DNA of 56,203 bases, taken from a virus (Duplodnaviria > Heunggongvirae > Uroviricota > Caudoviricetes). Positions within the stretch are counted from its first letter, which is position 1; every line of letters begins with the position of its first letter. The notes under the pieces are model-generated. The model saw only the letters and a list, made by a program, of their open reading frames with translations. It made no database searches and had not been told where the DNA came from. The stretch is taken from the IMG/VR virus record IMGVR_UViG_2778260992_000008, positions 1 through 56,203 of that record. One strand, 5' to 3'. Shown here in pieces: positions 3,959-44,811 of this stretch. Position numbers and translations under genes: made by a program.

Positions 3959-3976
3959 TATGGTATTGCCTCCGGT

Positions 3977-7668: not shown

Positions 7669-7975
7669 TTGCTTTTCTCCTATGGTTAAAATGAACGCGC
7701 GGGCGGGTATCCCATTAGCATTAGATAGCAGTGATTGACCGCTTAACAGATCCCGCCGTTGCGTGATATTTGTTTTTCGCTTCGCAGCGACACCGGGTTT
7801 TTAAAGAGCTTTAAGGTATGCGCCTTTTTGTGCTATTCCCTTATCTTTTTTCTTGCATCCTTGCAAGTCTGGCTTTACCTTGTCTGCAAGTTTACAGAAT
7901 GGCATTTACAGGTCAAGACTTGAAAAATACATTTTGTGACTTGCATCAAACTTTTTGGGGCGATAGGGTAGCGAC

Positions 7976-8623
7976 ATGAAAACAAAATGGTATGACTTAG
8001 CAAAACAACTCATGCGGGCGCAAGGTATGAGCCAGGATTCATTGGCGGACCTGATGGGGATCACGAAAGGCGGCTTATCGCACTGGCTGAACGGTCGCCG
8101 TGAGCCAAATCTTAATGATATTGCGCGGATCATGCGGGCGCTTGGTCGTCGGCAGTTTACGGTCACACATGATGGGATGGTTATTGATGATTCACTTTCT
8201 AATACACTGCCGGGAGCGCCACCGCTCGACGTAGGGCGTTATCCGGTGATTGACTGGAAAGACGCAGGAAACTACATGGAAGAAGCAAAACGCGCATCAT
8301 TACCGCACGTTAACACTAGCGTGATTTGTTCGGATGATAGTTATTGGCTGGTTGCAAAAGGTGAATCGATGAACGCGCCGCAAGGATTGAGCATCCCGGC
8401 GGGAACGATGATACTTGTTGATCCACACGCGCCAGCTATTGACGGCAAACTGGTTATAGCCCAATTGGAGGAAGGGCAAACGCCGACGTTTAAACAGTTG
8501 ATTATTGATGGAGGTCAAAGGCTTTTACGCTCGCTTAATCCGTTGTATCCACCAATCCCGCTAAATCCTGAATCAAAAATTATTGGCGTGGTGGTGGACG
8601 CGAAGATCGTAAACCTGCCATAA
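7976..8623 (+). CDS. cI-like repressor, HTH plus S24 LexA-type peptidase domain
   Basis: N-terminal HTH (SQDSLADLMGITKGGLSHWLNGRR); C-terminal GESM Ser and FKQL Lys dyad; divergent from replication genes. Confidence 0.85.
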   Translation: MKTKWYDLAKQLMRAQGMSQDSLADLMGITKGGLSHWLNGRREPNLNDIARIMRALGRRQFTVTHDGMVIDDSLSNTLPGAPPLDVGRYPVIDWKDAGNYMEEAKRASLPHVNTSVICSDDSYWLVAKGESMNAPQGLSIPAGTMILVDPHAPAIDGKLVIAQLEEGQTPTFKQLIIDGGQRLLRSLNPLYPPIPLNPESKIIGVVVDAKIVNLP

Positions 8624-8732: not shown

Positions 8733-8775
8733 GTATACAAAATGGATTGACTCGACATATCACAGGGCGTATATT
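8733..8775 (+). promoter_or_regulatory. sigma70-like early promoter with upstream ACAAAATGG element
   Basis: TTGACT (8747-8752), 17-nt spacer, TATATT (8770-8775); GTATACAAAATGGA immediately upstream. Confidence 0.55.
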
Positions 8776-9098: not shown

Positions 9099-9389
9099 AT
9101 GAATGCGAAGATCATTTACGGTAACTGTGAGAGCAAATTAAATGCACGGAAGCGCCGCCGGATGAAGCGGGCAGCCGAACAAGACGAAGGCCCGCACATA
9201 CAGAAGATTGATAAAGTGGAAAAAGCTATTCGCTTTGCAAATGAGGAAAGATGCAAATCAAATAGCGTTAAAGAACGTCGCAAGGGCGCGACAAAATGGT
9301 ATCAGGAAAATGAAAGCGGCAACTACTTCCACGCAACGCAGCCGCGCCAGCTTGGGGAGATCCCGTTAGATAAAGTTCGATACCATTAA
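9099..9389 (+). CDS. hypothetical basic protein (96 aa)
   Basis: Strong RBS AAGGAGAAAAGATT-ATG; first ORF after a ~320-nt leader. Confidence 0.5.
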   Translation: MNAKIIYGNCESKLNARKRRRMKRAAEQDEGPHIQKIDKVEKAIRFANEERCKSNSVKERRKGATKWYQENESGNYFHATQPRQLGEIPLDKVRYH

Positions 9390-12823: not shown

Positions 12824-12903
12824 TAAATATACATTTTGTATTGTCCCGCTGTATCCGTTTTGTAAACTGAAGTTAGAAGGTATACAGAACGGAGGGCGGG
12901 AAG

Positions 12904-16715: not shown

Positions 16716-16840
16716 TAATGGCGCTTTTTACTTTGTTCGGGTGTATCCATTTTGTATACTGCAATCAAACGAAATGCTCTTTAAAAATCCGGCCCCGCTG
16801 AAATGCGGAAACACATCACCTAACAGAATGAGATCAAATT

Positions 16841-37616: not shown

Positions 37617-38228
37617 TTAGTTCCAGTGGCAAGCATTTTTCACTTTGTTGATATGTTTTTCTAAGCCTTCGATGTTGAATGTTGCTTTTTCGATATAGCC
37701 CGCTTCCGGCAATGTTTCGATAATGAATTGTTTCTCGTTAAGCATTTTTTTAATCATCGGGATGGCTTTTTTGCCGTTCCATAATCCCAGGGCTTTATAG
37801 TTAGTTGCCCGTTGCCATTCTGCTTTCACCGCTTTATGTTCCCCGATCCGGTAGGTAACTTGGGTGGTATCGCCAGCATCCGCAATCATGTTATGCCAGG
37901 CTACAAACATTTTTGTTGTATTGGCTTTGCATTCGATAACTAATACCGGTTTATTTTTCTCTTTTGCTTTCAGTGCCGGGAAATCATCAAGCTGACCGTT
38001 AAATTTTACCGCTTTGACATGTAGCTGTACATTGGGTGTATCGTGCATATCGTCCTTACCTTCCCACACGGCCCACTGTTTCCCAATGTTATCCCGTTCC
38101 ATTTCTTGATGTTTTTCAGCTATTTCTTTTTCAAATTGTTTAATATTTTCAAGGCTTTTTGCTTGTTGTTCGCAACCAACCAGCCCAACCAGCGCCGCCA
38201 TTATTGCCACTTTCGCTAACCGTTTCAT
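37617..38228 (-). CDS. lipoprotein (accessory gene, opposite strand, inside tail module)
   Basis: Signal peptide plus lipobox MKRLAKVAIMAALVGLVGC; ATG 38228 with GGGG RBS; own promoter and terminator. Confidence 0.6.
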   Translation of the reverse strand: MKRLAKVAIMAALVGLVGCEQQAKSLENIKQFEKEIAEKHQEMERDNIGKQWAVWEGKDDMHDTPNVQLHVKAVKFNGQLDDFPALKAKEKNKPVLVIECKANTTKMFVAWHNMIADAGDTTQVTYRIGEHKAVKAEWQRATNYKALGLWNGKKAIPMIKKMLNEKQFIIETLPEAGYIEKATFNIEGLEKHINKVKNACHWN

Positions 38229-38276: not shown

Positions 38277-38316
38277 TATACAAAATGGAGTCGTTAAAGC
38301 AAATCCATTTTGTATA
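38277..38316. promoter_or_regulatory. perfect inverted repeat TATACAAAATGGA-N14-TCCATTTTGTATA with divergent promoter elements
   Basis: 13-nt arms at 38277-38289 and 38304-38316; TATAAA-like hexamers at both ends, one per strand. Confidence 0.55.
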
Positions 38317-41242: not shown

Positions 41243-41270
41243 CCCCCGGCGAAAGCTGGGGGTTTTCTTT
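41243..41270. terminator. bidirectional hairpin terminator after tape measure gene
   Basis: CCCCCGGC-GAAA-GCTGGGGG followed by TTTTCTTT; T-rich on the opposite strand too. Confidence 0.6.
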
Positions 41271-41448
41271 ATTCAACTTCGTCATTTTTAAATTCGTTGT
41301 TTACATAAAGCTGTAATGCGCTTATCAGTTCGGCGGCTTGCTTTTTGTCTATGACGATTAATTCGCAGTCACTTTCAAGCCATAATCTTTCGTCATATTC
41401 AATGCTAAGATTAATCCGCCGACAACCTTCCGTTTCATGAATAATCAT
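41269..41448 (-). CDS. small acidic protein (59 aa)
   Basis: MIIHETEGCRRINLSIEYDERLWLESDCELIVIDKKQAAELISALQLYVNNEFKNDEVE; RBS GGGGGAAATA; ends at the bidirectional terminator. Confidence 0.35.
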   Translation of the reverse strand: MIIHETEGCRRINLSIEYDERLWLESDCELIVIDKKQAAELISALQLYVNNEFKNDEVE

Positions 41449-41539
41449 TATTTCCCCCTATAATCGACCATTCCGCGCAATATATCCCCTTCCGAAAATT
41501 ACCAACCAAATATTCCAGATCTCCCGCCATGTAAATTTA

Positions 41540-41689
41540 TCATCTTCCATATCTCACCCCATCGCGCTTATAAGGCTTGTTATCAGCAAACGGGATTAAC
41601 GCATCGTTTGCCACCTGGCGATTAAACCAATCTTTCAGGACAACCAGGGAAAACCGGATGCCGTAGCTATGTAATTCGTGCCATTTCAT
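41540..41689 (-). CDS. small hypothetical protein (49 aa)
   Basis: ATG overlaps stop of upstream 84-aa gene (ATGA). Confidence 0.25.
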   Translation of the reverse strand: MKWHELHSYGIRFSLVVLKDWFNRQVANDALIPFADNKPYKRDGVRYGR

Positions 41690-41940
41690 TTATGACACCC
41701 CCGCACGCCGCATAATTCATTGTATTTATGATGCTCAACAATCAACCAAACTTTTAGATCCTGGCTGTAAAGCCGCCAATCAGGGTTGATATCGAATTTA
41801 AAACCATAACCATCTCGTAACTTTTTGGGGTGGGCTTCTTTATTTAGGAAAGCATTTAATAAAGCCTTACCCTTTTTGATGATCCGGTCCTGCGCGTTTT
41901 TTTGTGCTTTCAAATTTTTATCAATCGCTACCAGTTTCAT
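41686..41940 (-). CDS. hypothetical basic protein (84 aa)
   Basis: ORF in track; second gene of a tightly packed minus-strand cassette. Confidence 0.45.
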   Translation of the reverse strand: MKLVAIDKNLKAQKNAQDRIIKKGKALLNAFLNKEAHPKKLRDGYGFKFDINPDWRLYSQDLKVWLIVEHHKYNELCGVRGCHK

Positions 41941-41958
41941 AGCCCACCCCCATCATCC

Positions 41959-42126
41959 TTAGTTGACCGCTTTCAGGTAAAAATCCCGGTATTCGTTTTC
42001 CTTCACGTTCATGTAGAATTGGCCCATTTTAAATGCATCGTCGAAGCCTTTAACGATCGCCACTTCCACTTGTTCGAATGCGTCGTTAAGCATCACGACC
42101 GCGTAGTGTTTATCGTTGCGTTTCAT
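41959..42126 (-). CDS. small hypothetical protein (55 aa)
   Basis: ATG 42126 preceded by AAGGAGG; track ORF 41959-42201 begins further upstream. Confidence 0.4.
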   Translation of the reverse strand: MKRNDKHYAVVMLNDAFEQVEVAIVKGFDDAFKMGQFYMNVKENEYRDFYLKAVN

Positions 42127-42295
42127 CTTGGGCCTCCTTTGTTGGTACTGCTTTTCTTCTTGCTTTCTGTATACATCTTGTTGCGTCCTGTGTGAAGCCA
42201 TTTTGTAAACTGGTTATAATTCTTGTGATGAAGTTCTCATTTTTCGCGTAGAAGCGCGTAAAGATGTACACAAAATGTAACTTATAGGGGGAATT

Positions 42296-42649
42296 ATGCC
42301 GGAAGTGTTTACCTGGACGCCGCAGCGTAGCTACAGCGTAACCAGGGAGCCGAACGTTTCAGTTATTAAGCTGGGTGATGGTTATGAACAAAGGCAGACA
42401 AAAGGGATTAACCCTTTGCTTGATAGCTATAGCCTTGTCTTTAAGGGTACAAGCGCCGGATGCGGTGACGCTGGCAATCCAGCGATCCAGGCGGAGGCGT
42501 TTTTACGGGCGCGCGGCGCGGTCGAGGCGTTTTACTGGACGCCATCAATGGATGGGGAGCAAAGGCTTTTTGTCTGCCGAAAATGGAACATGACAAAGGA
42601 TGGCCCTGTGTTCACGCTAACCGCGACGTTTGAGCAAGTGATGAATTAA
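42296..42649 (+). CDS. minor tail protein M (lambda gpM-like)
   Basis: GDGYEQRQ...YSLVFKG...EAFLRARGAVEAFYWTP...FTLTATFEQVMN parallels lambda M. Confidence 0.8.
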   Translation: MPEVFTWTPQRSYSVTREPNVSVIKLGDGYEQRQTKGINPLLDSYSLVFKGTSAGCGDAGNPAIQAEAFLRARGAVEAFYWTPSMDGEQRLFVCRKWNMTKDGPVFTLTATFEQVMN

Positions 42650-42659
42650 AGGGGGCAAT

Positions 42660-42845
42660 ATGTACGGGATGTGCGTTAAGACTGGCGATGAATCATTTAC
42701 GCTATTCGAAGACTATCAGATCGATAATCTCACGGTGATGAGTGATAAAGGGGATATCTGGTATTTGCATGACTACGGCGACGGGTATGTGGGATGCAGA
42801 TCTTACGAAGGGAAGGAATATTTATTCTTGATTGAGGGCGTTTAA
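42660..42845 (+). CDS. hypothetical small protein
   Basis: 61-aa ORF with RBS AAGGGGG. Confidence 0.4.
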   Translation: MYGMCVKTGDESFTLFEDYQIDNLTVMSDKGDIWYLHDYGDGYVGCRSYEGKEYLFLIEGV

Positions 42846-42846
42846 T

Positions 42847-42933
42847 ATGCTGGTTGATGGCTTAGTAATGGTATTTATTATCGCGGTAAGTATGGCTATT
42901 TTTTACGAAATCGATAGTCGGAACGACAAATAA
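42847..42933 (+). CDS. small hydrophobic peptide (28 aa)
   Basis: MLVDGLVMVFIIAVSMAIFYEIDSRNDK; ends just before terminator. Confidence 0.3.
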   Translation: MLVDGLVMVFIIAVSMAIFYEIDSRNDK

Positions 42934-42940
42934 AATAACA

Positions 42941-42961
42941 CCCCGCCGAAGCGGGGTTTTT
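42941..42961. terminator. bidirectional hairpin terminator
   Basis: CCCCGC-CGAA-GCGGGG followed by TTTTTCG; between convergent plus and minus genes. Confidence 0.6.
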
Positions 42962-42965
42962 CGTG

Positions 42966-43103
42966 TTAGAAGTTCATGTGCATCAAGCCCATTGGGTGAG
43001 CGTGCGCCATGTTCTCAGCTATTGCGCACCAATCCCAATCCGCAGCGTGCACGCCAAATACTATCAAGCCCATTGCGATTAGCGCTAAAACTTCGATTTT
43101 CAT
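42966..43103 (-). CDS. small secreted His/Met-rich peptide (45 aa)
   Basis: MKIEVLALIAMGLIVFGVHA signal-like N-terminus then ADWDWCAIAENMAHAHPMGLMHMNF; RBS GGGGTGAACC. Confidence 0.35.
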   Translation of the reverse strand: MKIEVLALIAMGLIVFGVHAADWDWCAIAENMAHAHPMGLMHMNF

Positions 43104-43114
43104 GGTTCACCCCA

Positions 43115-43186
43115 TTAATTCAGAAAGGCATAAACGATGGCAATCGCGCCAGCCACTACCAAAACATTTTCGATTACTTCATCCAT
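43115..43186 (-). CDS. small hydrophobic peptide (23 aa)
   Basis: MDEVIENVLVVAGAIAIVYAFLN; RBS GGCGGTGA. Confidence 0.3.
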   Translation of the reverse strand: MDEVIENVLVVAGAIAIVYAFLN

Positions 43187-43195
43187 AATCACCGC

Positions 43196-43444
43196 CTATA
43201 AGTTATCACGCAGATAATTAACGCCCTTGTCAGTGACGAATGAATGATTAACCTGGTTTTCATCCGTCATAATAATGAATAACTTTTCCTGTAAGTATTT
43301 TGCTTTTGGGTACAGCGTTAAACAGACCTGATACAGTATCCCGCGCTCAATCAGCAAATCAATAAATTCGTGCTCATGATAACCGATGAGACGGGCGGCC
43401 TGTTTCAACGTGTACACATAATCACCGTGATTGCGCCGCCCCAT
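43196..43444 (-). CDS. hypothetical protein (82 aa), possibly DNA-binding
   Basis: ORF in track; YTLKQAARLIGYHEHEFIDLLIERGIL has HTH-like character. Confidence 0.4.
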   Translation of the reverse strand: MGRRNHGDYVYTLKQAARLIGYHEHEFIDLLIERGILYQVCLTLYPKAKYLQEKLFIIMTDENQVNHSFVTDKGVNYLRDNL

Positions 43445-43452
43445 GTTGCCGC

Positions 43453-43806
43453 CTATTTATCAAAGCAACTTAAATTATCGATACAGAAGTCTTTAGCAGC
43501 ATTTTCGTATTCGCGTTTTGCTTCAGGATCGTCAGCCGGGAAGCCTTTTGCGTGGATTTCACCAGGGCAAGACTGATCCATAGAGTCTGCAAATTCAACA
43601 TTGACGTTAAAGTTAATATCTTTCGGGTTCATATCTTCCACCTTCTCGGCTATTTGTACCGGAGTTATTTTGAATTCCCTGGCGCGCCCGAAGAAGCGAA
43701 CAAGTTTTTCTCCTTCCTCGACTGCCATTTCGTAACTGTCATGTAAGCCGTAACCTTCCCAATCCTTACTGCCTGCCATCCATACATCGAGACGGTATTT
43801 TTGCAT
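43453..43806 (-). CDS. hypothetical acidic protein (117 aa)
   Basis: ATG 43806 four nt after upstream stop; track ORF extends to 43860. Confidence 0.4.
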   Translation of the reverse strand: MQKYRLDVWMAGSKDWEGYGLHDSYEMAVEEGEKLVRFFGRAREFKITPVQIAEKVEDMNPKDINFNVNVEFADSMDQSCPGEIHAKGFPADDPEAKREYENAAKDFCIDNLSCFDK

Positions 43807-43807
43807 T

Positions 43808-43975
43808 TTACTGATCCCCGCTTTTAATCGGTTTAATCCGGTAGCCCAGGACGCGATCATCTTTTTCCGATAGGTCGAGGGCCGTTTCTAGGGCGTCGCC
43901 AGGGTTATCGAATTCAGCCTCGATATCACGCCCGTTACTCATGAATAAGGTCAGTCGCCATAGTTTATCGTTCAT
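43808..43975 (-). CDS. small hypothetical acidic protein (55 aa)
   Basis: MNDKLWRLTLFMSNGRDIEAEFDNPGDALETALDLSEKDDRVLGYRIKPIKSGDQ; RBS AAGGGCGCGGG; first gene downstream of minus-strand promoter. Confidence 0.35.
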   Translation of the reverse strand: MNDKLWRLTLFMSNGRDIEAEFDNPGDALETALDLSEKDDRVLGYRIKPIKSGDQ

Positions 43976-44023
43976 CCCGCGCCCTTTTGTGCCATTTTGT
44001 TAACTGTGCTTCCGTTTGAGTAA

Positions 44024-44061
44024 AATATACATATTGTACAAACCGCGATCAATCCATTTTG
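44024..44061 (-). promoter_or_regulatory. sigma70-like promoter for minus-strand cassette, with upstream CAAAATGGA element
   Basis: On minus strand: CCAAAATGGA-TTGATC-N17-TATATT; same layout as the promoter at 8733-8775. Confidence 0.5.
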
Positions 44062-44106
44062 GTATGATTTGGCGTGACGCAGATCACAAAATCAGAAGGT
44101 GAGAAA

Positions 44107-44811
44107 ATGCGCAATATACCGACAGAGATGATTATTGATTCCGTGGACGCTGGCGTGGGCGCGGTGATTGACTTGTTCGAATTGGACTTGTCGCCCCTGG
44201 GTGGGGAAGTTATCCGCTTCCATTCTGGCACGAATGGTTATTACGGTGATGTAATTTGGAAAGGGATTGCATACAACAGCTACCCGATCGAGGTTAGCGG
44301 CTTTGAGATGAAAAACGAGGGCGTTTATTCGCGGCCCCAAATGGCGGTCGCCAATATGGGCGGCCTTGTTACCGGAATGAACAACGATTACAACGACCTG
44401 GTAGGAATGAAGGTAACGCGCCGCCAGGTGGCGGTAAAGTACCTGGACGCTGTTAACTTCCCTAACGGCAATCCCGATGCAGATCCATCTATCGAGGCCG
44501 TATCGGTTTACGTTGTCGAGGCAATGAGCGAAGAAACCGCCGACCAGGTGCAATATGAACTGGCAACGCCGATTGATGCAGATAAGGCCATCATCCCAGG
44601 GCGCACCATCCTTGCGGACGTTTGCCAATGGCAATACAAAGGCGATGGATGCGGCTACGCTGGCGGGCCAGTTGCCACCGACAAAGACACACCGACCAAT
44701 GACCCGACGCTGGACAAATGCAGCCACCGCCTAAGCGGTTGTCGCTTGCGTTTCCCGCGCCCAAATCCGCTACCGATTTCGTGCTTTCCTGGTTCGGGTA
44801 AGGTGAGCTAA
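44107..44811 (+). CDS. minor tail protein L (lambda gpL-like)
   Basis: GFE.NG....RP...V.N..G.VTGM and CQWQYKGDGCGYAG match lambda L; ATG 44107 with RBS AAGGTGAG. Confidence 0.85.
   Translation: MRNIPTEMIIDSVDAGVGAVIDLFELDLSPLGGEVIRFHSGTNGYYGDVIWKGIAYNSYPIEVSGFEMKNEGVYSRPQMAVANMGGLVTGMNNDYNDLVGMKVTRRQVAVKYLDAVNFPNGNPDADPSIEAVSVYVVEAMSEETADQVQYELATPIDADKAIIPGRTILADVCQWQYKGDGCGYAGGPVATDKDTPTNDPTLDKCSHRLSGCRLRFPRPNPLPISCFPGSGKVS

What the first reader, a model, noticed from the sequence alone, without database searches (positions are those of the whole stretch)
42966..44061. Five-gene minus-strand accessory cassette between tail genes M and L
Five small genes (55, 117, 82, 23 and 45 codons) run opposite to the tail operon. 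They have their own sigma70-like promoter (TTGATC-N17-TATATT, preceded by the CAAAATGGA element) and end at a bidirectional terminator. The products include an HTH-like protein, a single-helix membrane peptide, and a signal-peptide-bearing His/Met-rich peptide (AHAHPMGLMHMNF). None looks like a tail structural protein. The organisation suggests a lysogen-expressed module, possibly defence, exclusion, toxin-antitoxin or metal-related.
Basis: partly seen in the sequence, partly recalled or inferred. Interest (0 to 1): 0.8.

Follow-up and report, generated by a model that had tools for sequence, protein, structure and literature searches.

The report
Reverse accessory operon in phage tail genes
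Five small genes sit backwards between two tail genes of an mEp021-type E. coli prophage; they are real, conserved and occasionally absent, so this is an ordinary phage accessory island ("moron") whose proteins have no known function.

Summary
Five tightly packed minus-strand ORFs (55, 117, 82, 23 and 45 codons; 42966-43975) lie between tail genes M and L. All five, including the two tiny ones, show purifying selection in frame (pN/pS 0.05-0.17; other frames at least 0.83). A sigma70-like promoter (TTGATC-17-TATATT) is invariant in 38 distinct relatives. A 7-bp GC hairpin (42940-42957) can terminate on both strands.

The window is an mEp021-type (mEpimmI) E. coli temperate siphophage. The island is in 43 of 44 close relatives and 33 of 34 E. 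coli prophages. It is precisely absent in one lineage, and more distant relatives have M and L adjacent. Its G+C is lower than that of the tail genes.

- The 82-aa protein is a remote, stand-alone ANT/KilAC domain.
- The 55-aa protein and the N-terminal half of the 117-aa protein are probably paralogous small beta-beta-alpha-beta domains.
- Every island ends with one or two interchangeable small acidic hydrophobic peptides.

No defence, toxin-antitoxin, metal-binding or tail-assembly family matched. The best reading is a moron-type accessory operon interrupting the late operon. Expression in the lysogen and the function are inferred, not shown. It is a new member of a known kind, of modest interest.

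The parts
44024..44052 (-). Sigma70-like promoter of the cassette: -35 TTGATC (44047-44052), 17-nt spacer, -10 TATATT (44024-44029); inferred start near 44017
   Evidence: 9/12 match; both hexamers invariant in 38 distinct relatives; no expression data
44053..44061 (-). CAAAATGGA element abutting the -35. Possibly a proximal UP-like A-tract; part of a dispersed 13-mer motif
   Evidence: This copy varies among relatives. The UP-element reading (7/9 match to AAAAAARNR) is my own inference
43972..44003 (-). Conserved leader: invariant GTTAACAAAATGG motif plus a 7-codon mini-ORF (MAQKGAG) whose stop overlaps the p55 start (ATGA). In most relatives this ATG is in frame with the first gene
43808..43975 (-). 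p55: 55-aa acidic protein, phrog_29559, with predicted beta-beta-alpha-beta pattern. PGAP calls it 'transporter' with no family support found here
   Evidence: (pN/pS 0.16)
43453..43806 (-). p117: 117-aa acidic protein, phrog_38567. The N-terminal domain (1-52) is variable but confidently folded and resembles p55. The C-terminal half is sequence-conserved but poorly modelled
   Evidence: (pN/pS 0.14)
43196..43444 (-). p82: stand-alone remote ANT/KilAC domain, HTH-like; the most conserved gene of the island
   Evidence: PF03374, 29.9 bits against cutoff 25.3; pN/pS 0.05
43115..43186 (-). p23: 23-aa acidic single-helix hydrophobic peptide; present in only part of the islands
   Evidence: (pN/pS 0.11)
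42966..43103 (-). p45: 45-aa peptide with a hydrophobic N-terminal segment (signal-peptide-like, V-H-A|A) and a His/Met-rich tail. Allelic with a 38-aa form that lacks the tail
   Evidence: (pN/pS 0.17)
42940..42957 (.). Bidirectional intrinsic-terminator-like hairpin shared by the minus-strand cassette and the plus-strand M-p61-p33 unit
42660..42933 (+). Plus-strand part of the same island: p61 (42660-42845, phrog_3249) and a 33-aa hydrophobic ORF (42832-42933), both convergent with the cassette. No p61 or p33 homologue is found in the island-less relative
43997..44026 (+). Plus-strand promoter-like site TTGTTA-18-TAAAAT pointing at gene L. Its -10 overlaps the -10 of the cassette promoter
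   Evidence: conserved; retained in island-less L086
42296..42649 (+). Left flank: minor tail protein M homologue
   Evidence: PF05939, E 4e-30
44107..44811 (+). Right flank: minor tail protein L homologue
   Evidence: PF05100, E 8e-72

Best explanation
This is a moron-type accessory island inserted at the M/L junction of the tail operon of an mEp021-type (mEpimmI) E. coli temperate siphophage. Its minus-strand part is one five-gene operon, read from a conserved sigma70-type promoter just upstream of gene L. It ends at a hairpin that also stops the plus-strand M-p61-p33 unit. The late operon is therefore interrupted, in a 'non-contiguous operon' layout.

Shown here: the five genes are real and under purifying selection. 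The island is nearly universal in the group but dispensable. Its content is modular: p55 - p117 - [optional insert] - p82 - [optional 67-aa gene] - one or two small hydrophobic peptides, which exist as interchangeable alleles.

Inferred: the operon is transcribed independently of late transcription, most likely from the repressed prophage, and its products act on the host cell rather than on the virion. The stand-alone KilAC protein p82 probably binds a highly conserved partner. That partner could be DNA, or a host or phage regulator such as RecA or the phage repressor. The only tested KilAC domain, in Listeria AriS, damps the SOS response. The small acidic single-pass peptides probably act at the inner membrane, most plausibly in exclusion of incoming phage, as HK97 gp15 does. 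The paralogous acidic proteins p55 and p117 have no assignable role.
For: - Identity of the phage.
- Coding status of all five ORFs.
- Operon-like packing.
- Promoter hexamers invariant in 38 distinct sequences. Terminator.
- Accessory nature: the island is present in 43 of 44 close relatives found through gene L and in 33 of 34 E. coli genomes, with one exact island-less junction. In 70%-identity relatives, M and L are adjacent or separated by unrelated small cargo. G+C is 0.42-0.47 against 0.52-0.55 in gene L.
- Modularity, and a small hydrophobic peptide at the end of every island.
- p82 is a KilAC domain. Its pN/pS of 0.05 is the lowest in the island.
- AriS KilAC domain inhibits SOS: PMC9043618.
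- mEpimmI lysogens are mostly not UV-inducible, and their repressor lacks the cleavage site: PMC11893012. No LexA box occurs in the window.
- Precedents: HK97 gp15 (PMC3594210) and phi80 taiEcA (PMC11364771).
- Neighbouring reverse islands carry typical moron cargo, a ParE-like toxin and a lipoprotein.
Against: - There are no expression data of any kind.
- The promoter-like site is no better than chance expectation for the region.
- Its conservation cannot be separated from that of an overlapping plus-strand promoter-like site for gene L, and the whole segment is kept in the island-less variant.
- Near-universal presence (about 97%) is unusual for optional cargo.
- p82 is a marginal KilAC member. 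It has no significant BLASTP match to the AriS-like protein A118 gp42, and its model is low-confidence.
- No homology links the peptides to any known exclusion protein.
- Peptide alleles track neighbouring genes only as far as physical linkage predicts, with no special link to the tape measure or J.
Confidence: 0.55

Rival explanations
1. The operon is part of the phage's own lytic programme (early or middle), not a lysogen-expressed moron. Its promoter would be controlled by a phage factor acting at the conserved motifs around it. The acidic proteins p55 and p117, with p82, would serve host takeover, anti-defence or control of the tail genes.
For: The island is nearly universal in the group. 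The paper on this group lists the KilAC-like protein among the proteins it counted as core genes in its manual analysis. The promoter sits among conserved motifs: a near-palindrome TATACATATTGTACA over its -10 and spacer, and copies of a 13-mer that also flank the early promoters next to the repressor gene. p117 (net charge -10) and p55 (-4) are acidic, like many anti-defence proteins.
Against: No regulator or binding site has been identified. The orientation against the late operon, a private terminator and lower G+C are the classic moron signature. No anti-defence family matched.
Confidence: 0.25
2. It is a toxin-antitoxin or abortive-infection module. The small hydrophobic peptides would be membrane toxins, held in check by p82 (as regulator) or by p55/p117 (as antidotes).
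For: The 23-24-aa and 38-45-aa hydrophobic peptides resemble small membrane toxins in size. The neighbouring reverse island carries a ParE-like toxin. The alleles are interchangeable.
Against: No toxin or antitoxin family hit in Pfam or PADLOC. All the peptides are acidic and lack the basic residues typical of type I toxins. No antisense RNA family was found. p55 and p117 variants reassort freely, so there is no cognate-pair pattern.
Confidence: 0.08
3. It is a metal-related module. The secreted His/Met-rich peptide would bind periplasmic Cu, Ag or Zn.
For: The tail MAHAHPMGLMHM has 3 His and 4 Met in 12 residues, after a signal-peptide-like segment.
Against: The commonest allele (38 aa...ENIALMEME) lacks the tail entirely. 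A third allele class is an unrelated 24-aa peptide. There is no match to any metal-binding family, and no metal-responsive regulator or transporter nearby.
Confidence: 0.02
4. The products are tail-assembly or virion components.
For: Only their location inside the tail gene cluster.
Against: They are on the opposite strand. No tail family matched. A viable lineage lacks the whole island. The text of the mEp021 virion proteomics names none of them, though the full list is in a figure I could not read.
Confidence: 0.02

Closest known systems
HK97 gene 15 moron (Juhala et al. 2000; Cumby et al. 2012; reviewed in PMC3594210)
   Same: Extra DNA inside the tail operon, with its own promoter and terminator and a different G+C, encoding a small inner-membrane protein. 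HK97 gp15 is expressed from the prophage and blocks DNA entry of incoming phage.
   Different: HK97 has one gene, between the tail chaperone and tape measure genes, and gp15 is YebO-like. Here there are five genes on the opposite strand between M and L. No Pfam family at all matched the peptides. Exclusion is untested.
phi80 taiEcA/atiEcA non-contiguous operon (He et al. 2024, PMC11364771)
   Same: A reverse-oriented gene interrupts the late operon. It is expressed in the lysogen and sits next to a gene in late-operon orientation. Here the plus-strand p61 lies convergent to the reverse cassette in the same island.
   Different: TaiEcA is a 26-kDa protein located before the packaging genes. No sequence comparison with Tai or Ati was possible. 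Nothing here shows defence or counter-defence.
AriS of Listeria phage phi10403S, ANT/KilAC domain (Azulay et al. 2022, PMC9043618)
   Same: p82 matches the same Pfam family (PF03374). In AriS the isolated KilAC domain is enough to suppress the SOS response.
   Different: AriS has two domains (AntA/AntB plus KilAC) and lies in the early region of a Firmicute phage. p82 is a bare, remote domain (29.9 bits against 112.7 for A118 gp42; BLASTP not significant).
P22 immI region (mnt, arc, ant); from my own knowledge of the literature
   Same: A regulatory module named for an antirepressor, lying among late genes with its own promoters.
   Different: P22 Ant belongs to other families. No Arc or Mnt-like repressors occur here, and no antirepressor activity is shown for p82.
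Lpp exclusion lipoproteins of mEpimmI phages (PMC11893012)
   Same: Small envelope proteins of the same phage group, shown to exclude related phages.
   Different: They are lipoproteins with a lipobox; p23 and p45 have none. They are encoded at a different locus.

Membership tests
Moron (Hendrix/Juhala definition) | Extra DNA absent from closely related genomes | tested here: met
   Island-less junction in L086 and E. coli MS 21-1. M and L are adjacent in 70%-identity relatives.
Moron (Hendrix/Juhala definition) | Own promoter | tested here: inconclusive
   A conserved sigma70-like site, but no better than chance in the scan, overlapped by a plus-strand site, and with no transcript data.
Moron (Hendrix/Juhala definition) | Own terminator | tested here: met
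   GC hairpin with U-tracts on both strands, 9 nt after the last stop codon; sequence level only.
Moron (Hendrix/Juhala definition) | Base composition differs from neighbours | tested here: met
   G+C 0.42-0.47 in the island against 0.52-0.55 in gene L and up to 0.62 in the tape measure gene.
Moron (Hendrix/Juhala definition) | Expressed from the repressed prophage | not testable with these tools
   Needs RNA-seq, 5' RACE or a reporter in a lysogen.
ANT/KilAC domain, PF03374 (p82) | Score above Pfam's gathering threshold | tested here: met
   29.9 bits against 25.3, E 7e-7, covering model positions 23-105 of 108.
ANT/KilAC domain, PF03374 (p82) | Direct homology to proteins with a strong KilAC domain | tested here: met
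   34% identity to residues 185-256 of P0105 (E 9e-5 across 1.8 billion proteins), whose ANT domain scores 99 bits. 32-38% identity to the C-termini of Rha/Ant proteins of Vibrio, Cronobacter and Hafnia phages.
ANT/KilAC domain, PF03374 (p82) | Usual architecture: C-terminal to a Bro-N, KilA-N, Rha or AntA domain | tested here: not met
   p82 is the bare domain. Only one 82-aa cluster of this kind exists among 1.84 billion representatives.
AriS-like SOS inhibitors | KilAC domain lowers SOS gene expression | not testable with these tools
   The activity is known only for Listeria proteins. BLASTP of p82 against A118 gp42 is not significant.
HK97 gp15 / YebO-like exclusion proteins | Sequence membership in the YebO family | tested here: not met
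   No Pfam hit at E up to 1 for p23 or p45.
HK97 gp15 / YebO-like exclusion proteins | Small single-pass inner-membrane protein encoded in the tail operon | tested here: met
   Hydropathy 2.5-3.1 over 15 residues for p23, p45 and their alleles. This shows resemblance only.
Toxin-antitoxin or known defence systems | A recognised toxin, antitoxin or defence domain | tested here: not met
   No hits in PADLOC, NCBIfam or Pfam for the five proteins.
Tai/Ati tail-assembly-inhibition system | Homology to Tai or Ati proteins | not tested
   Tai and Ati sequences were not at hand. Only the layout (reverse genes interrupting the late operon) is shared.
Periplasmic His/Met metal-binding peptides | His/Met motif conserved across the family | tested here: not met
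   The 38-aa alleles lack the tail and are the commonest form.
Tail structural or assembly proteins | Match to a tail protein family, or indispensability | tested here: not met
   No such match. An island-less lineage exists.

The most novel reading that the evidence does not exclude
The island is a two-sided prophage module. In the lysogen, the reverse operon would make a bare KilAC protein that damps RecA/SOS signalling or induction. That would help explain why these phages are mostly not UV-inducible. It would also make small acidic membrane peptides that exclude incoming phages. The convergent late-strand gene p61 would neutralise one of these products during the phage's own lytic growth, giving a defence/counter-defence pair arranged as a non-contiguous operon, built entirely from protein families with no described members.
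Probability: 0.12. Interest if true: 0.6.

Novelty: new member of a known kind. Interest (0 to 1): 0.33.

Why it matters
If the inferred roles hold, the island would add new small-protein families to the set of prophage genes that alter host behaviour. These would be a minimal KilAC domain, a duplicated beta-beta-alpha-beta domain, and very small acidic membrane peptides. It would also give a second coliphage example of reverse genes embedded in a late operon. Phages of this group are reported to be as common as lambdoid phages in human faecal isolates (PMC11893012). A nearly universal module that affects induction or exclusion would therefore matter for prophage stability in gut E. coli. As it stands, it is a well-delimited but functionally unassigned accessory operon.

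Tried and rejected
- PADLOC and NCBIfam gave no hits for any of the five proteins. PHROGs gave only families of unknown function.
- PDB sequence searches with p82 and with profiles of p55 and p117 found nothing meaningful.
- The single-sequence model of p82 has low confidence. MerR-type HTH domains top the list but are not significant.
- Homologues of p117, p45 and p55 are confined to this E. coli/Shigella phage group, so there is no informative context elsewhere.
- The PGAP name 'transporter' for p55 has no support in any library.
- I tested whether the peptide allele is coupled to tape-measure or J alleles, as an injection-blocking exclusion protein might be. The association simply decays with distance (p61 0.51, p82 0.41, gpM 0.30, tape measure 0.19, gpL 0.17).
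- p55 and p117 variants reassort freely, so there is no cognate-pair signal.
- Rfam found no RNA family in 37-45 kb.
- No LexA box occurs in the window, so a LexA-controlled antirepressor is unlikely.
- I could not settle what the 13-mer motif TATACAAAATGGA is. I considered operator, UP element, -10 region, mini-ORF start and module boundary. It is not palindromic, so a CI-type operator is unlikely.
- The supplements of the mEp021 paper did not mention these genes.

Full report
**What the window is.** The region matches Escherichia phages mEp021, mEp010, mEp013, mEp044, mEp515, mEp554 and MagusPhagus, and about 34 E. coli prophages. These form the recently described mEpimmI group of Nus-dependent, non-lambdoid temperate siphophages (PMC11893012). 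The flanking genes are minor tail protein M (42296-42649, PF05939) and minor tail protein L (44107-44811, PF05100). Upstream lies the tape measure gene; K, I and J lie downstream.

- Five minus-strand ORFs of 55, 117, 82, 23 and 45 codons occupy 42966-43975. The gaps between them are 1, 8, 9 and 11 nt, and each has an SD-like motif.
- I collected 43 related loci through the 117-aa protein and 52 through gene L.
- A Nei-Gojobori count on ungapped homologous segments gives in-frame pN/pS of 0.16 (p55), 0.14 (p117), 0.05 (p82), 0.11 (p23) and 0.17 (p45). The two other frames of the same strand give 0.83-4.6.
- The 23- and 45-codon ORFs are therefore genuine genes. PGAP annotates the 45-aa one in E. 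coli and misses the 23-aa one.

**Promoter and terminator.**
- TTGATC-17-TATATT (44052..44024) scores 9/12. Such sites are not enriched over shuffled sequence. Both hexamers are nevertheless invariant in 38 distinct intergenic sequences, while parts of the spacer and flanks vary.
- Two caveats apply. A plus-strand promoter-like site pointing at gene L (TTGTTA-18-TAAAAT, 43997-44026) overlaps the -10, so the conservation cannot be assigned to one strand. The whole segment is also retained in the one lineage that has lost the cassette.
- The hairpin at 42940-42957 folds at -13 to -15 kcal/mol on either strand, with U-rich tails on both sides. It lies 9 nt after the p45 stop codon.

**It is an accessory island at a hotspot.**
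- Among 44 close relatives found through gene L (a search unbiased for the island), 43 carry the island and one (L086) does not.
- Among 34 complete E. coli genomes with this junction, one (strain MS 21-1) has the same island-less joint.
- In L086 the stop codon of M is joined directly to ...ATTTTGTTAAC, that is, to the leader and promoter segment. This looks like a secondary deletion.
- In relatives with about 70% identical L, M and L are 35-45 nt apart. Alternatively they are separated by an unrelated convergent pair of small genes.
- The island therefore spans 42650-44106. It includes two plus-strand small genes, p61 (phrog_3249) and a 33-aa hydrophobic ORF.
- G+C is 0.42-0.47 in the island against 0.52-0.55 in L.
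- The tail operon is interrupted by two further reverse islands. One lies before the tape measure gene and encodes a VasI-domain lipoprotein. The other lies between the tape measure gene and M and encodes a ParE-like toxin domain.

**Anatomy across relatives.**
- The order is always p55-like, p117, p82, then small peptide gene(s).
- Optional inserts are a 77-aa gene (mEp021 gp72) or an HNH endonuclease between p117 and p82, and a 67-aa gene after p82.
- Every island ends with at least one small hydrophobic peptide gene. The alleles are:
  - the 45-aa form (two subtypes);
  - a 38-aa form with the same N-terminal half but no His/Met tail;
  - an unrelated 24-aa peptide (MCEHYVLEMIIIIIGLLCILLSTL).
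- p23 is an optional extra. The window's exact layout occurs in 4 of 44 loci.
- All these peptides are very hydrophobic (Kyte-Doolittle 2.5-3.1 over 15 residues) and acidic (net charge -2 to -4).

**The proteins.**
- *p82.* It matches Pfam ANT/KilAC above the gathering score. It aligns to the strong KilAC domain of a 264-aa protein, and to the C-termini of Rha/Ant proteins of Vibrio, Cronobacter and Hafnia phages. It is the bare domain, and its own 82-aa cluster is the only one of that kind among 1.84 billion representatives. A single-sequence model is of low confidence. Its best structural matches are MerR-type winged HTH domains, but none is significant.
- *p55 and p117.* A profile comparison aligns the whole p55 family with the N-terminal domain of p117 (85% probability, E 6e-6, 54 columns). 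The two are probably tandem paralogues.
- *Distribution.* The p55, p117 and p45 families occur only in this E. coli/Shigella phage group.
- *Negative searches.* No defence, toxin-antitoxin, exclusion, metal-binding or tail family matched.

**How it most likely works.**
- The layout has four features of a moron: reverse orientation, a private promoter-like site, a shared bidirectional terminator and lower G+C. It also resembles the non-contiguous operon described for phi80 taiEcA (PMC3594210; PMC11364771). I therefore favour an autonomously transcribed accessory operon, probably active in the lysogen, whose products act on the cell. This step is inferred.
- For p82, the only tested KilAC domain (Listeria AriS) suffices to suppress the SOS response, probably through RecA (PMC9043618). 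The extreme constraint on p82 (pN/pS 0.05, with synonymous divergence of 0.23) fits a conserved partner. mEpimmI lysogens are mostly not UV-inducible, and the window has no LexA box. This is a lead, not a test: p82 shows no significant BLASTP similarity to the AriS-like A118 gp42.
- For the peptides, exclusion at the inner membrane as with HK97 gp15 is the most plausible role. However, allele associations simply decay with distance and show no link to the tape measure or J.

**Rivals.**
- A lytic-cycle operon under phage control remains quite possible. The island is near-universal, and conserved motifs surround the promoter.
- Toxin-antitoxin, metal-related and tail-assembly readings are poorly supported. 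Details are in the rival entries.

**Verdict.** This is a real, well-delimited, conserved five-gene reverse operon: an ordinary kind of element (moron or non-contiguous operon) made of uncharacterised lineage-specific proteins. The functional suggestions are partly plausible but untested, and the metal idea is unlikely.

Noticed in passing
window 8734-8746(+), 16746-16758(-), 38277-38289(+), 38304-38316(-); near copies at 3976, 5259, 12830-12893, 16680, 42197(-), 42267(+), 43991(-), 51273(-), 51334(+): The 13-mer TATACAAAATGGA occurs four times perfectly. Near copies bring the count to 43 sites with up to 3 mismatches, against 22 expected. Copies sit next to the early promoter after the repressor gene, before the nutR2-like boxA, and in every divergent junction of the tail operon. 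The motif is not palindromic. Its ATG often starts a mini-ORF or the first gene. What it does is unexplained.
   Followed up: partly
window 38277-38316: A perfect 40-bp palindrome (the 13-mer, 14 nt, then the inverted 13-mer) lies between the reverse lipoprotein gene and the tape measure gene. It can be read as two back-to-back promoters, each with a TATAAA -10.
   Followed up: partly
window 41269-42201(-): A second reverse island lies between the tape measure gene and M. It holds an 84-aa ParE-like toxin domain protein (41686-41940, PF24732, E 2e-11), preceded by a small ORF (41959-42126) that could be its antitoxin, plus two further small ORFs.
   Followed up: partly
window 37617-38228(-): A reverse-oriented lipoprotein (lipobox LVGC) with a T6SS VasI domain (PF11319, E 7e-17) lies between the tail chaperone genes and the tape measure gene. 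This is the same slot as the HK97 gp15 moron.
   Followed up: partly
window 42660-42933(+): p61 (phrog_3249) and a 33-aa hydrophobic ORF follow gene M on the late strand and belong to the same island. No p61 or p33 homologue is found in the island-less relative. p61 variants track the small-peptide alleles (Spearman 0.51), which physical linkage alone could explain.
   Followed up: partly
window 43997-44052: Two promoter-like sites on opposite strands have overlapping -10 hexamers (TAAAAT on plus, TATATT on minus). RNA polymerase could probably occupy only one at a time, giving a possible switch between the cassette and gene L.
   Followed up: no
L086 3369-3500; E. coli MS 21-1 (NZ_CP146670.1, 2541630-2542229): In the island-less variant the cassette promoter would fire antisense into gene M.
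   Followed up: partly
L004, L005 (RM9245, MLI107) and protein clusters P0096-P0100: RefSeq names the p55 family 'transporter'. Nothing supports this: the protein is 55 aa, has no hydrophobic segment and matches no family.
   Followed up: yes
L007 3357-3842; L001 6083-6649 (mEp021 gp78): HNH endonuclease genes are inserted at different places in relatives: inside this island between p117 and p82, and between I and J in mEp021. This suggests mobile HNH elements add to the mosaicism.
   Followed up: no
window 7976-8623(+), 9099-9389(+), 7795-7806, about 16775: A CI-like repressor (HTH plus S24) and an Arg-rich N-like protein are encoded on the same strand. rrn-type boxA sequences (GCTCTTTAAA) mark the nutL and nutR2 sites described for mEp021. 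The window contains no LexA box.
   Followed up: partly
L094 2865-3335, L097 2824-3294, L095 2943-3336: More distant relatives carry a different, smaller convergent gene pair (88 aa on plus, 71 aa on minus) at the same M/L junction. The junction is thus a recurrent insertion hotspot with the same topology.
   Followed up: no
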